From an uncultured cyanobacterium (GTDB lineage Bacteria > Cyanobacteriota > Cyanobacteriia > Cyanobacteriales > Nostocaceae): a stretch of DNA of 64,000 nucleotides. A program made the position numbers. Numbering within the stretch: the stretch's first letter is position 1; every line of letters begins with the position of its first letter. Below are positions 40,201-49,200 of the stretch, piece after piece. Location: positions 2,496,001-2,560,000 of the forward strand of contig OY970166.1 in NCBI GenBank assembly GCA_963706595.1. Direction: 5' to 3'.

Positions 40201-43200
40201 TCGTTGCAGACGAATGGAGATTTATTTTCACCGCCCTTGCAGTTCTGAGTATGGTGTTGGGTAACGTCGTCGCCCTCGCCCAAACCAGCATGAAACGGAT
40301 GTTAGCTTATTCATCCATTGCTCAAGCTGGATTTGTGATGATTGGCATGATTGCCGGTACTGAAGCCGGATATGCCAGTATGGTATTTTACCTGATGGTT
40401 TACCTGTTCATGAACCTGTGCGGGTTTACCTGCATCATTCTCTTCTCCCTACGCACAGGAACCGACCAAATTGCCGAATACTCTGGCTTGTATCAAAAAG
40501 ACCCACTTTTGACATTGGCTTTGAGTATCTCCCTACTTTCTTTAGGTGGTATTCCGCCATTAGCTGGGTTTTTCGGGAAAATCTACTTATTTTGGGCAGG
40601 TTGGCAAGCTGGACTTTACTGGTTAGTTTTACTTGGTTTAGTTACCAGCGTTGTCTCCATCTACTACTACATTCGCGTAGTCAAAATGATGGTAGTCAAA
40701 GAACCTCAAGAAATGTCCGAAGTAGTCAAGAATTATCCCGAAATTAAGTGGAATTTGCCCGGATTTAGACCTTTGCAAGTGGGACTGATAGTAACTTTAA
40801 TCGCTACCACCATTGCTGGGGTTTTGTCCAATCCACTATTTACACTGGCGAACAATTCTATCTCTCACACTGCAATGCTACAAGCAACAATTTTTGAGAG
40901 AACTCAAATAAGTGCAATCTCCACACAGGAACCAGAGGAGTTGTAGATTGTTCTCTTGTTAACTCATGGCTGAAACTGTTGGGGCGGAACTTATTGCGCC
41001 CCAACTTAGATTTAAATTTTTAAATAAATATATTTGTCATCTAATCAATAGGAATAGTGATCACGAATTCAGAACCTTTTCCTGGTGCGGAATTCACTTC
41101 CAGACTTCCCTGGTGCTTCTCTACAATAATTTGACGCGCAATTGATAATCCTAAACCAGTACCCTGTCCTACAGGTTTAGTTGTAAATAAATATTCAAAT
41201 ATTTTCTGCTGAACATCATCTGACATTCCCACTCCATTATCTTTGAGATGATTTCTAAATTGGTATTTGTATCATCGACAATTAAAATTAAATCTTTTTT
41301 TGGGAGATTAGACATTTTTATTTTTTAGTTTTGATAAATCTTATAATTATTTTTTTGTTTAATTATGCTGAAATGCCGTTGTATTATCTTCTGAGATTTT
41401 TTGAGTCAGTCCGTATTGTTAGAGTACAGAGTCAGAGATATGAGCCAATATTCCTTCTCTGCTTTTCTTCAGAGAGAGTAATCAGGAGGCTAGAACCGGC
41501 TGTGCGATCGCGCTACCCCTTGTTCATTAGCTTTCCCAAAAAGGTGTTGATTCTTACTATTGATATGGAATAACCATACCCAACAGATGGCTTCCACAGG
41601 ATATCTTTGCTCATTTGCATGATCGTCTGGCAATCAGTCATTCAGTTGCGCGACAGACATATACGTTATTTTTTTTAGTTTGTCATCACCTATTTGAATG
41701 ATATTTGCTGTTTATTTAAGTGTTATATGAAAATTATACTAATTTTATTGCTTGTCATTAGATGTATTTATAGGTATAAATAAAGATTTTGCGTGAGAAA
41801 ATTTTGATCTTTTTAAGTTGTAAGTAATGCTAGTAAAAATTATACCTTTGAGAGAGAAGAATAAATTAGTCCTTGAGGTCTAATTAAGAATATTTATAGA
41901 TAAATTTAAGGTTGAATTTAACTGAGAGATATGATGCAAGTAGTAATTTATATGTATTATTACTTAATTAATAAAAACAAAAGGATTTGTGATTTTTTAA
42001 ATATATCGAGGAAACTTCCATAAAATTACTGTTATCATTTTTAAGAAAAAATCAAACAATAGTCATATAAATTCAAATTTAAACCGTAATTTATAGCTTC
42101 AAATGTAGTTACCAGAAGTGCAAAGATAATTTGCGAACAGTATACTTTTCTGGCAAAGTAATCAAACAAATCTAGTGAATCAGAGTTATTTATAGCTCAG
42201 GCTAGAACTCAGCCGTAACTCAATTTTTCAAAAATGAGTTAATAGATGAATTTGTAGTAATTATTCATTCTAATAGACACAAATTCATTGCGTTTGCGTA
42301 GCTAAATAAATCAATTTATTAGGGAATAGGGATATTCATGCAAGAGCGATAGAAATAATTTGCTGATTTATGGTGCAACAGTTAATTTGTCATAACGTAA
42401 ATTATTGAATTAGGGAGATTTAACAATGAGAGAATTACTCGTATTTATTGAAGAAAAAAAACAGGAATTTGCGAGTTTACCATTATTTGAATTCATGAGA
42501 GATCAAAGTATTGATCCCAAAGAAAGGCTTGCTTGGGCATCATACGCGGCTCCTTTTATTATGAGTTTTGGAGACTTAAACAAATATGTTTTTAGAGACG
42601 AACAAAGTAGCGATCCAATTCAGGTAATCATCAACAAACATACTTATGAAGATGATCATCACTGGTTATGGTTTTTAGAGGACTGTCAACTTTTACAAAT
42701 TAACCAAGGAATGCATTCTATCGATGCATTTAAATTTATTTGGGGTCAAGAAACAGAAATGTCTCGCCAGTTAGTGTATAAACTTTGTAGATATAGTTTC
42801 CAAGCTACTTTGATCCAGAAATTGGTATTAATTGAAGTCATCGAAGCAACTGGAAATGTCATGTTTGTAGTTGCATCTACAGTTGGTAAGCAATTTCAGG
42901 AAACTACCCAAACAAAACTTCTTTACTTTGCTGATTTTCATTTAAATGTAGAGACTGGGCATACAACTGGCTCACCTGAAGTAGAAGAATTTATGCAAAA
43001 TATTCAATTGTCAGAAGAAAATCTACAGGAAGCTTATGAACTGGTTGAAAAAGTGTTTGATCTTTTTACAAGCTTTACCAACTATCTTTTAATTCATGCT
43101 CAAGAATCTACAAAGCGCCAAGTTGCAAAAGCTAATTAAAAAATACTGGCATTCGTCAAAACTCAAGTATAAATTTGAAGAGGAAAAGTCATGAATGTAG

Positions 43201-46200: not shown

Positions 46201-49200
46201 ATTGCAGAAGTGATGATGCCCGTAAATCCATCCACCTATCAATACATCCGCAAAGAATTACGCGGAAAAAGGCTTTCATCGGCAAATAATTCCGAGATAG
46301 CTGAAAGTTCAGCTATAGAAGTGGGTTAATACCGCACTTTGCAAATAAATGAAGTACACATTTTAACTTGACACCTATGGCATCTTGCCCGCCCTTGTCT
46401 ACCTCTCTCAGATGAAATGTGATGAAGTAAGCAATGGCTAAACGCCGTTGCTTACTTCATCACTATCCTATGGGTATTTCAATTACAAACTCAGTACCCT
46501 GTCCCAGTTCAGAATTACAGGTTAACTTACCCTGATGTTTATCCACAACAATCTGATAACTGATTGACAAACCCAACCCTGTACCACTACCTACTGGTTT
46601 CGTAGTAAAAAATGGGTCAAATATTTTTTGCCGCACAGATGCTGTCATACCAAAGGCGTTATCAGCAAACCTAATCTTGAGCATATTAGACTTTGTTAGT
46701 TCAGTGCAAATACGAATTGTGGGACTGCTAATGGTTTGCTCTTTAACTTGTGTCTCTTGCAAGGCATCAATTGCATTGCTAAGAATATTCATAAATACTT
46801 GATTAAGTTGACTAGGGTAACAAGTAATAATCGGTATATCTCCGTATTCTTTGATGATTTTAATTTCACTACAAGTTTGATCTCCAAGTCGTTTTACGTT
46901 TGTAGTATTTTGCTTAAATCGATGCTGCAAAATCATTAAAGTGTTATCCAGCCCCTCATGAATATCAACAGGTTTCATTTCAGATTCATCCAGGCGGGAG
47001 AAATTACGTAAGCCTAAAACGATATTTCGGATACGCGAACTTCCAACTTTCATAGAATCTATAGTTTTAGGTAAGTCTTCTACTAGAAAATCTAGATCAA
47101 TTTCTTCAGCTTTTTCGACAACTTTAGATGCTGGATAGGGATATTCACGTTGATAGACAGCAAACAAGTCTAATAAATCTTCGACATAATCACTAGTATG
47201 AACAAGATTGCCATGAATAAAGTTGATAGGATTGTTAATTTCATGGGCAATTCCTGCTACCATTTGCCCCAAGGAAGACATTTTTTCACTTTGAATTAAT
47301 TGGCTCTGAGTGCGTTGCAATTCCTGTAAAGTTTGCTGCAAATTTTTATTTTTCTCTTTAATTTCTAATGTTCTTTCGGCTACTTTTTCCTCTAAAGTGT
47401 GGTTGTATACCTCCAATCGCTCATTAGCTTGAGCTAAATTTTTGTAAAGCATGGCATTCTCTAGAGAGATTGCTGCTTGGCTAGTCAAAAGTTTGAGAAC
47501 TTCTAAGCGATCGCGTGTAAATGCCCCTGTGGTCAAATTATTTTCTAGGTAAACAATGCCCAGCAATTTACTTTGATTAATCATTGGGATACACAACAAA
47601 CTTTTTGCTTCCTGATGAATAATGTAGATATCTGCCGCTAAGGTAGCTTGAGCTTTTACATCATCAACAACGAATATTTCGCGTGTACGTTTTACATAAT
47701 TAATTAAAGAAATAGGAACATCGGTACTAGATTCTAGAGCAGTTGCTATAAAATTTATGTTAGTATCAATAGAATTTGAACTGTAACTAACGGCAGTAAC
47801 TGTTAAGGTTAATTCATCACTTTCACTCAAAATTAAAACACATTTCGATGCTCCCGCGTTTTCCATGACAACTTCCATTAAAGTCGAAAGAAGTTCCTGT
47901 AATTCAATTTCCCCAGAAAGTGCTTGAGACGCTTTAATGACAGTTGCTAAGTCCAGCATATCTGACATACTAGTATTAGAACTAACCATAGCTTCATTAG
48001 TAATTAAGATAGATTTATTACTAGGGTTAGATTGAGTTATGCTACTTTCAGAGGTACTTATTTCACTAGAATGTAGGTTCAGCTTTTCTGCTTGAATAAT
48101 AGACTTCAGTAATTGAGAATAGCGTTTTTCTAAGTCGTTTACTTTTGCTAATGCACCCCACCGAACATAGCTATAGTAAGCATCAGTTAGGTAAGTTTGG
48201 GCAATCTTCTGCTTACCCCATTCTAAATAAAACTTACTGGCAAGTTCTTGAGCCAGAGCTTCTTCATGGATATATTCATGTTCATGAGCCAGGGAGATGG
48301 CACGGTCATAATATTCCATTGCCTCCAAATATTGAGCCAAAATACGATATTTTTCAGCCTCTATCAAATAAAATTTATGTAAATGATTTATCGGCACATG
48401 ATCTGCCCATTTACGTATCTTTTGTTGATTAGCTAGTACTTTAGCCAAGATTTGTTCTTGTTGAGATGGCTCGGCATCATCATATATAGCCAGCAATGCT
48501 AGAGAACTATAAAAATATAATTGCGGAACCACAAACTGTCCAATTCCACTAGGTAAATACTGCTCTGCTATGACAGCATTTTTAACTGCTTCAGGGTAAT
48601 TGCCAAATAGATAACACAAATAAAGTTTACATAGATAAACATACAAAAGTGCAATTCCATCATTAGCTTTTATCTGAACTGGCAGGATTTTTGTCTCATC
48701 ATAAGCTTCACCAATCAAATGGCAGGGATTTTCAACAGCACCCATTAAATTTAATACTGTCTGTCGATAAATTTGAATCCAGTAAAAAACGCCATCCTGC
48801 TTAATTTGGCAGGCGGCATAACTGTAGTTTGCCATTTCCCGCTCAAGTTGGGTCAGTTCCTGACCGCTAAAATAGGAAATGTAGCAGTATGAATATAAAG
48901 AATAAGCAGCGAATTCTAAATCTCCTGTTTCTAATCCAACAGCATAAGCTTCTAAAAGAGGCTGTAAAACTTCCTTAATCGGTTCCTTCCAATGCCTGAC
49001 ATGAGCATTAAATGTTTGGATAATTTTAGATTTAATTTCTTTAAGATTAAAGCGTGATGATAGACTTATAGCTAATTTGCCAAACTGATAACCAAGTTCA
49101 ATATCTTCCAAAGGACCACACAGCATTAAACCATAGGCAACATATGCAAAGGCCGATAAGGGAGAATTACCATATTTAAGCGATAAATTAACTTGTTTCA

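What a model noticed while it worked through the whole genome (the two positions that open the first line are those of the whole stretch)
42426..46329. ERFAD/OroF-class flavoenzyme replaces the SktB halogenase in cyanobacterial skatole (sktA) clusters
The skatole-type cluster g02285-g02287 has, between sktA and sktC, a full-length homologue of human FOXRED2/ERFAD (g02286) instead of the PrnA-type brominase SktB. Across cyanobacteria the two genes are mutually exclusive partners of SktA, so g02286 is most likely a bacterial tryptophan/indole halogenase of the class so far known only from the sponge brominase OroF.
Evidence so far: g02285 is 57.6% identical to SktA; g02286 is 35.8% identical to human FOXRED2 over 567 columns, E 4e-115 (swissprot.tsv, call 93); no AetF or PrnA structure among its PDB hits. 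Of 80 sktA-like loci, 36 have SktB, 18 the FOXRED2-like gene and 0 both, in the same slot. Conversely 26 of 28 loci found with g02286 have an SktA/AetD-like gene beside it. In Acaryochloris the two are fused in one 890-aa protein. PMC12833800 (passages read, call 106) shows that the ERFAD-like sponge protein OroF (43% to human ERFAD) is a flavin brominase with no likeness to known halogenases and says no reaction is known for ERFAD.
(Added by a program. Inside this text positions count along the whole contig: contig position 2,496,001 is position 1 of the stretch shown here. "Call 12" and the like, gene names such as g00115 and contig names such as C1 are that model's own, and its searches are not shown. 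The text may have been shortened before it was handed on; [...] marks where a part breaks off. The agent that wrote the report below was given it as the finding of a first reader that could run no searches.)

Follow-up and report, generated by a model that had tools for sequence, protein, structure and literature searches.

The report
Candidate new halogenase in skatole cluster
In this cyanobacterial tryptophan-to-skatole gene cluster, the place normally held by a halogen-adding enzyme is taken by an unstudied relative of the human protein FOXRED2/ERFAD, which probably adds a halogen too and so offers a simple way to test what this enzyme family does.

Summary
The window has sktA-like (57.6% to SktA), a 531-aa flavoprotein 36% identical to mammalian FOXRED2 over its full length, and sktC-like (54.2%). 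Of 80 sktA-like loci, 36 carry a PrnA-type halogenase, 2 a CndH-type halogenase, 20 the FOXRED2-like gene, none both. New here: in an even sample of 401 cyanobacterial genomes the commonest partner is the CndH-type halogenase (15 of 64 loci read; SktB 5, FOXRED2-like 4, prenyltransferase 1, none 39). So two distinct halogenase families and this gene swap in one slot, at least nine times on the tree. The protein keeps the flavin-monooxygenase asparagine used for O2 activation. Best reading: a single-component tryptophan/indole halogenase (about 0.58). Rivals: hydroxylase (0.2) or reductase for the diiron enzyme (0.12). Weak points: no assay; OroF could not be compared and arose by a sponge-specific duplication; tree-corrected exclusivity is only p about 0.06; prenyltransferases also use the slot. 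'OroF-class' membership is untested, and 'replaces SktB' may be the wrong direction. The scan noted the sktA-flavoenzyme fusion before on other DNA (e1-2770723).

The parts
42426..43139 (+). sktA-like heme-oxygenase-like diiron oxidase (HDO), 237 aa; probable tryptophan C-alpha/C-beta cleaving enzyme
   Evidence: 57.6% to SktA; AetD E 3e-51; D76, H79, E140, H172, E176, H179 present and conserved in 41-48 of 48 aligned relatives (their role as iron ligands is recalled from AetD)
43191..44786 (+). FOXRED2/ERFAD-family class B flavoprotein, 531 aa; proposed single-component tryptophan/indole halogenase. FAD and NADPH Rossmann motifs at residues 13 and 188, N58/K59, R228, K241, C-terminal domain about 363-522
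   Evidence: PF13738 E 1.6e-53; 36% to wombat FOXRED2; model pLDDT 95.4; N58 in 91 of 91, K59 and K241 each in 88 of 91
44788..46329 (+). sktC-like flavin monooxygenase (FMO type), 513 aa
   Evidence: 54.2% to SktC; PF00743 E 1.9e-51; best PDB hits FMO2 and DiatB
46463..52110 (-). Convergent Ser/Thr kinase-AAA-GAF-histidine kinase gene, here in two overlapping ORFs (51343-52110, 255 aa; 46463-51355, 1630 aa); usual neighbour of these clusters, possible sensor of the product (inferred)
   Evidence: Pfam domains; a relative lies in 53 of 80 sktA-like loci
40947..42425 (.). AT-rich (30% G+C) upstream region between ndhB and the cluster; probable regulatory region
   Evidence: G+C 0.304 against 0.415 for the window; consensus promoter matches no more than chance (18 found, 20.7 expected)

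Best explanation
g02286 is a self-sufficient FAD/NADPH enzyme that halogenates (bromine or chlorine) the indole ring of free tryptophan, or of skatole, as the first step of an skt-type pathway. NADPH reduces the bound FAD; O2 gives a C4a-hydroperoxyflavin held by N58; this oxidises halide to hypohalous acid, which a conserved lysine (K59 or K241) may direct to the indole. The HDO then cleaves the halo-tryptophan to halo-skatole, cyanide and bicarbonate, as SktA does, and the SktC-like enzyme oxidises it further. Shown here: gene order, homologies, fold class, conserved residues, slot interchange. Shown by others: SktA and SktB reactions, OroF bromination. Inferred: every catalytic step of g02286, its substrate, halide and position.
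For: (1) One slot, three occupants, never two at once. 80 loci: 36 PrnA-type, 2 CndH-type, 20 FOXRED2-like, 22 none, 0 both. Even sample, 64 of 72 matches read: 5 SktB, 15 CndH-type, 4 FOXRED2-like, 1 prenyltransferase, 39 none. None of the 20 genomes with a canonical-halogenase locus holds the FOXRED2-like gene anywhere. (2) The swaps recur: at least 9 changes among partnered loci; sister pairs L082 (FOXRED2-like)/L025 (CndH-type), support 98, and L058/L061 (PrnA-type), support 95; a single origin of canonical-halogenase loci is rejected (p-AU 1e-49). (3) Same surroundings: HDO-X-sktC occurs with X = SktB (L021), CndH-type (L218) and FOXRED2-like (window); the ndhB site holds 9 FOXRED2-like, 5 SktB-type and 3 empty clusters; L025 and L059 share three upstream genes; L058+L180 has the HDO-X-antiporter-kinase layout of L046/L061. 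(4) The one family member with a reported reaction, OroF, is a brominase that works with or without added flavin reductase (PMC12833800). (5) N58 is invariant and aligns with SktC N57, which aligns with the Asn of the FMO2 motif and DiatB N57; no CxxC. (6) No PF04820 match in the window's genome (94% complete).
Against: No assay and no halogenated product tied to a carrier strain (search found none). OroF arose by sponge-specific duplication from ERFAD; animal proteins form their own clade far from g02286. The two lysine motifs are also in all 117 proteins newly returned by the animal FOXRED2 search, so they do not mark halogenases. Tree-corrected exclusivity is weak: 8 independent pairs, 0 same way, 4.6 opposite, median p 0.0625; p 0.25 on the smaller tree. 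The slot region also takes prenyltransferases and P450s (L045, L068, L073), so it means 'ring tailoring', not only halogenation. Methyltransferases follow 4 of 20 FOXRED2-like loci and 0 of 38 canonical-halogenase loci. Outside these clusters the family sits in settings with no indole link (fatty acyl-AMP ligase-ACP fusions, MFS fusions), and in L094 beside a canonical-halogenase-like fragment (E 1.5e-9). 4 of 23 genomes with the gene hold a strong PrnA-type gene elsewhere; 2 of 36 SktB-type genomes hold a FOXRED2-like gene in another cluster.
Confidence: 0.58

Rival explanations
1. It is a class B monooxygenase that hydroxylates the indole ring or nitrogen (for example 5-hydroxy- or N-hydroxy-tryptophan/skatole), which a methyltransferase then caps in some clusters.
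For: Fold neighbours are type II FMOs and N-hydroxylases (4a9w Z 30.8, rmsd 2.5, 316 aligned; DesB Z 28.6, rmsd 3.3, 340 aligned). N58 serves oxygen transfer as well as halide oxidation. Methyltransferases in 4 of 20 against 0 of 38 loci, and in L081, L087, L102. Non-halogenase tailoring genes also use the slot region.
Against: A 55-59% identical orthologue of the O-methyltransferase occurs in L050, whose complete chromosome record has no FOXRED2-like match, so it needs no hydroxyl from this enzyme. A hydroxylase would not be redundant with a halogenase, yet they never co-occur. The window already has an FMO (SktC-like).
Confidence: 0.2
2. It is the NADPH-dependent reductase that returns the HDO diiron site to Fe(II)2 (SktA assays needed ascorbate), not a tailoring enzyme.
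For: Fused to the HDO in several lineages (L063, L058/L180, L060, L107). Family members lie beside or fused to other reductant-dependent metalloenzymes: IDO-like (P0131), P450 (L104, L105), CmlA-type diiron hydroxylase (L100). Bdr and ferredoxin-NADP reductases rank at the top of sequence and fold searches. FOXRED2 is named in reviews on hypoxia-activated prodrugs (listing only; its reductase role there is recalled).
Against: A reductase would be needed whatever the halogenase, yet it is absent from all 38 canonical-halogenase loci and 60 of 64 evenly sampled loci lack it. The invariant FMO-type Asn and lack of CxxC point to O2 activation.
Confidence: 0.12
3. It does another oxidation on a downstream product (ring opening, dimerisation, cyanide or peroxide handling), and the exclusivity reflects cassette exchange at one recombination-prone position.
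For: Exclusivity is not significant after correction for descent; most loci have no partner; the C-terminal domain has no clear structural match to guide substrate (best Z 4.9).
Against: In the loci read, the flavoenzymes found to exchange with it are two halogenase families; P450, IDO-like, hydrolase and SktC genes co-occur with it freely.
Confidence: 0.1

Closest known systems
skt cluster of Nostoc punctiforme NIES-2108 (SktA skatole synthase, SktB brominase, SktC; Adak et al. 2025, PMC11869266)
   Same: Three-gene order HDO-X-FMO; 57.6% and 54.2% identity for genes 1 and 3; convergent kinase-sensor gene behind.
   Different: Gene 2 is unrelated to SktB (no blastp hit; PF13738 instead of PF04820). 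In the main text read, the paper does not mention such a variant.
OroF, sponge pyrrole dibrominase of the ERFAD-like family (PMC12833800)
   Same: [quoted passage not shown]
   Different: Animal, signal peptide, pyrrole-amide substrate, product of a sponge-specific duplication. Direct identity to g02286 unknown.
Animal FOXRED2/ERFAD
   Same: 33.5-40% identity along the core and C-terminal domain; motifs around N58/K59, R228 and K241 kept.
   Different: g02286 starts at the Rossmann fold with no signal peptide, lacks the C-terminal extension, and lies in a biosynthetic operon.
AetF/Bmp5-type single-component flavin halogenases
   Same: Proposed logic: FMO-like scaffold with its own NADPH domain used for halogenation (fold class recalled; AetF function from the listing and from PMC11869266).
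   Different: No AetF or Bmp5 entry among listed PDB sequence or fold hits; different C-terminal domain.
Type II FMOs, Bdr/YpdA and N-hydroxylases (3d1c, 4a9w, 7a7b, 6xbb)
   Same: Closest solved folds, Z 28-32, rmsd 2.5-3.6 over 313-352 residues.
   Different: Only 16-22% identity; none covers the C-terminal domain.

Membership tests
skt-type cluster | SktA-like HDO with three His and three carboxylate residues | tested here: met
   57.6% to SktA; D76, H79, E140, H172, E176, H179 present
skt-type cluster | SktC-like FMO in the operon | tested here: met
   54.2% over 511 aa
skt-type cluster | PrnA-type halogenase SktB | tested here: not met
   No SktB hit in the cluster; no PF04820 match in the genome
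skt-type cluster | Conversion of (halo)tryptophan to (halo)skatole and cyanide | not testable with these tools
   Needs an assay; AetD, also related, makes a nitrile instead
FOXRED2/ERFAD family | Full-length homology including the C-terminal domain | tested here: met
   36% over 565 columns to wombat FOXRED2, query residues 8-520; Atlas FOXRED2 cluster score 0.98
FOXRED2/ERFAD family | ER signal peptide and retention motif (animal ERFAD proper) | tested here: not met
   Rossmann motif starts at residue 13; alignment shows no N-terminal extension. It is a bacterial family member, not an ERFAD orthologue in function
OroF-class brominase | Sequence or clade relation to OroF itself | not testable with these tools
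   OroF sequence is in a supplement that could not be opened; none of the proteins returned was identifiable as OroF
OroF-class brominase | Halogenation with FAD, NADPH and bromide, no partner reductase | not testable with these tools
   Needs an assay
OroF-class brominase | Lack of canonical halogenase motifs | tested here: met
   No WxWxIP and no FxxPxxSxG
Canonical flavin-dependent halogenases (PF04820) | PF04820 match and WxWxIP motif | tested here: not met
AetF/Bmp5-type single-component halogenases | Structural match to AetF | tested here: inconclusive
   Not among the listed top rows; lists are cut at about 50 entries
Class B flavin monooxygenases | Two Rossmann motifs in one chain (FAD and NADPH) | tested here: met
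   Motifs at residues 13 and 188; fold matches
Class B flavin monooxygenases | Asn beside flavin C4a as in FMOs | tested here: met
   N58 in 91 of 91; aligns with SktC N57 and through it FMO2/DiatB Asn. Position by alignment, not by coordinates; role of this Asn is established knowledge of FMOs, recalled
Class B flavin monooxygenases | FxGxxxHxxxY fingerprint before the NADPH motif (type I FMO) | tested here: not met
   Pattern matches only at residue 326, outside the usual place
Thioredoxin-reductase-like disulfide reductases | Redox CxxC | tested here: not met
   No CxxC; all NCBIfam reductase models far below cut-off. Bdr and FNR relatives also lack it (recalled), so this does not exclude a reductase

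The most novel reading that the evidence does not exclude
g02286 is the first bacterial member of a structurally distinct halogenase class, and halide oxidation is the ancestral chemistry of the whole FOXRED2/ERFAD family: the same invariant active-site set (N58-K59, R228, K241) runs from cyanobacteria, actinomycetes and myxobacteria to vertebrates. Hundreds of unannotated bacterial clusters would then encode hidden halogenases, and human ERFAD might make hypohalous acid or halogenate a substrate in the ER.
Probability: 0.2. Interest if true: 0.92.

Novelty: new variant of a known kind. Interest (0 to 1): 0.68.

Why it matters
No reaction is known for ERFAD, and OroF's mechanism is open (PMC12833800). 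A bacterial, signal-peptide-free homologue with an obvious candidate substrate (tryptophan) makes both questions testable in one assay. If it halogenates, genome miners gain a halogenase class that PF04820 misses: 587 representatives at E <= 1e-30, with the nearest Atlas clusters mostly actinomycete. It would also be a candidate self-sufficient biocatalyst for indole halogenation and would predict halo-skatole and cyanide release from cyanobacteria with no recognised halogenase.

Tried and rejected
Antiporter as an independent halogenase marker: FOXRED2-like genes lie beside or fused to a PF00999 antiporter in L100, L104, L105, L180 and P0136, and all 6 Streptomyces plasmid loci that I picked from 43 Streptomyces hits held a flavin or vanadium halogenase gene (the 2 non-actinomycete loci did not). 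Rejected as strong evidence: on a tree the FOXRED2-linked antiporters fall apart from those six, and 0 of 7 cyanobacterial orthologue loci had a halogenase nearby. HDO-flavoprotein complex prediction: no verdict, score 0.00; not evidence either way. C-terminal domain fold search: no match above Z 4.9, none at E <= 0.001; this does not show a new fold. AetF was not among listed fold hits; inconclusive. Conserved lysines as a halogenase signature: rejected, since animal FOXRED2 keep them too. NRPS adenylation motifs near other family members showed no clear tryptophan type by recalled codes; not used. MiuG is Bmp5-like, not of this family (PMC10051162 passages). Promoter and terminator scans gave chance levels. 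Vanadium haloperoxidase search of the own genome found nothing but its control also rang nowhere. SktC as the halogenase: unlikely, as it co-occurs with SktB in 33 loci. The paper reader closed, so the OroF supplement (sequence, tree, model) and later papers were not read. Expression data were not looked up.
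Full report
Observation. Three genes lie at 42426-43139, 43191-44786 and 44788-46329 on the + strand, 51 and 1 bases apart. The first hits only AetD in the PDB (E 3e-51) and is 57.6% identical to SktA; the third is 54.2% identical to SktC; the second has no hit to SktB. The reference cluster is locus L021 from N. punctiforme NIES-2108, whose proteins match the supplement of PMC11869266 by eye. 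The middle protein matches PF13738, no NCBIfam model above cut-off, and is 36% identical over 565 columns to wombat FOXRED2 and 33.5-40% to all 117 proteins newly returned by a search with an animal FOXRED2-like protein. Human FOXRED2 itself was not aligned.

What the papers say. PMC11869266 (parts 1-2 of 4, which hold the main text, and supplement passages): SktB brominates Trp at C5 without added reductase; SktA turns Trp or 5-bromo-Trp into skatole, cyanide and bicarbonate with Fe(II) and ascorbate; SktC was insoluble. PMC12833800 (abstract, passages, part 3 of 5 of the main section; supplement not seen): OroF is ERFAD-like, 43% to human ERFAD, brominates pyrrole amides with or without SsuE, does not chlorinate, lacks known halogenase motifs, and arose by duplication in an oroidin-producing ancestor; no reaction is known for ERFAD. 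Searches for ERFAD plus halogenase, FOXRED2 with halogenase terms, FOXRED2 enzyme terms and SktB/SktC/OroF since 2025 listed no paper on a bacterial member; only listings were seen, and the library lacks most subscription papers.

Slot analysis, first set. Of 80 sktA-like loci (80 of 85 kept), 36 hold a PrnA-type halogenase, 19 the FOXRED2-like gene, none both. L058 ends inside an HDO fusion that continues on another contig, making 20. Two more hold a CndH-type halogenase; 22 hold none. The 36 are three lineages: 32 SktB proper, L007, and L046/L055/L061. In 14 metagenome loci found with the flavoprotein, 9 have an HDO neighbour.

Slot analysis, even sample. In 401 cyanobacterial genomes, 47 have an HDO (72 matches) and 5 the flavoprotein. 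I read 64 of the 72 surroundings (plus L102 and the own paralogue; 22 with only 1.5 kb flanks): 5 SktB, 15 CndH-type (11 in one genus), 4 FOXRED2-like, 1 prenyltransferase, 39 none. None of the 20 genomes with a canonical-halogenase locus has the flavoprotein. The layout HDO-X-sktC exists with all three X (L021, L218, window). At genome level exclusivity is looser: 2 of 36 PrnA-type genomes carry the flavoprotein in other clusters, and 4 of 23 carrier genomes have a strong PrnA-type gene elsewhere. The window's genome has no PF04820 match.

Descent. On HDO trees of 70 and 105 rows (22 near-identical Nostoc SktB loci and duplicates left out) the partner changes at least 9 times among partnered loci, with supported sister swaps L082/L025 and L058/L061. 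One origin of canonical-halogenase loci is rejected. Independent pairs give 0 same way and 4.6 opposite of 8, median p 0.0625; 0 and 2.8 of 6, p 0.25, on the smaller tree. The FOXRED2-like gene is spread more widely than SktB, so SktB may be the newcomer; the root is not fixed.

Anatomy. The model is confident (pLDDT 95.4). Its core matches type II FMOs, Bdr and N-hydroxylases (Z 28-32). N58 is invariant and aligns with the FMO asparagine through SktC. K59 and K241 are the only conserved lysines (88 of 91 each); R228 is invariant; WxWxIP and CxxC are absent. These residues are kept in animal FOXRED2 as well, so they define the family, not halogenation. The C-terminal domain folds well alone and has no clear match.

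Wider family. 587 representatives score E <= 1e-30; the nearest Atlas clusters are mostly actinomycete. Fusions join it to HDO, fatty acyl-AMP ligase-ACP, MFS, antiporter, FMN dehydrogenase, cupin and an IDO-like domain. Loci in Streptomyces, Nonomuraea, myxobacteria and PKS/NRPS clusters show a general tailoring enzyme. The HDO-linked proteins lie in one clade (support 99) with two non-HDO members; animal proteins form another (fast tree). An antiporter link first looked like a halogenase mark but did not survive a tree and a control.

Mechanism and rivals. The simplest account of repeated exchange with two distinct halogenase families, in a protein family whose one assayed member brominates and whose site looks O2-activating, is a self-sufficient indole halogenase (0.58). 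A hydroxylase fits the fold and the methyltransferase neighbours (4 of 20 against 0 of 38), but the same O-methyltransferase occurs without the gene in L050 (0.2). A reductase for the diiron site fits the fusions and metalloenzyme neighbours but not its absence from most loci (0.12). Other oxidation with cassette exchange remains (0.1). All catalytic steps are inferred.

Verdict. A real and undescribed variant of the skt cluster. The gene is a true FOXRED2/ERFAD-family member; it probably works like OroF, but membership of an OroF class is untested. The scan saw the HDO-flavoenzyme fusion before (e1-2770723) without naming FOXRED2 or OroF (no finding holds those words). Interest 0.68: one cheap assay decides it and bears on a human protein of unknown reaction.

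Noticed in passing
window 46463-52110 (-): The kinase-AAA-GAF-histidine kinase gene is in two overlapping ORFs (255 + 1630 aa), while relatives have one ORF of about 1860-1940 aa: a frameshift or a sequencing error. A relative lies in 53 of 80 sktA-like loci, which suggests the indole product is a signal.
   Followed up: partly
G000:C1:1592175-1592957 (-): Second sktA-like gene in the window's genome (46% identical), with no tailoring partner, convergent with an intact 1879-aa kinase-sensor gene.
   Followed up: partly
L025:8339-10042, L043, L192, L196-L199, L201-L206, L208, L216, L218, L246: An uncharacterised CndH-type flavin halogenase (about 570 aa) is the commonest partner of sktA-like genes in the even sample; CndH-type enzymes usually act on carrier-bound substrates (recalled), and no carrier gene was seen beside them.
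   Followed up: partly
L084, L086, L092: HDO-flavoprotein clusters with an IDO-family gene in place of sktC, in L092 followed by a formamidase-like hydrolase: possible ring opening to an aminoacetophenone-type product (inferred).
   Followed up: no
L045:8909-9844, L068, L073: sktA-like genes paired with aromatic or tryptophan prenyltransferases and P450s: candidate prenyl-skatole pathways.
   Followed up: no
P0122, P0125, P0277-P0283, P0297, P0300-P0304: Fatty acyl-AMP ligase-ACP-FOXRED2-like fusions, one inside an NRPS; a subgroup (P0125, P0300, P0302, P0304) has lost the K241 lysine.
   Followed up: partly
L104:14890-20378 and L105:13418-19241: Actinomycete operons of FOXRED2-like gene, P450 and antiporter, with an FMN oxidase or an AMP ligase; no canonical halogenase found within 15 kb. 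Products unknown.
   Followed up: partly
L100 (G284:C24) and L179: A divergent (38%) FOXRED2-like gene inside a cyanobacterial PKS/NRPS cluster with a CmlA-type beta-hydroxylase.
   Followed up: partly
P0015: Aetokthonos hydrillicola, the source of AetD and AetF, also encodes a 73% identical FOXRED2-like protein; its context was not read.
   Followed up: no
   Followed up: no
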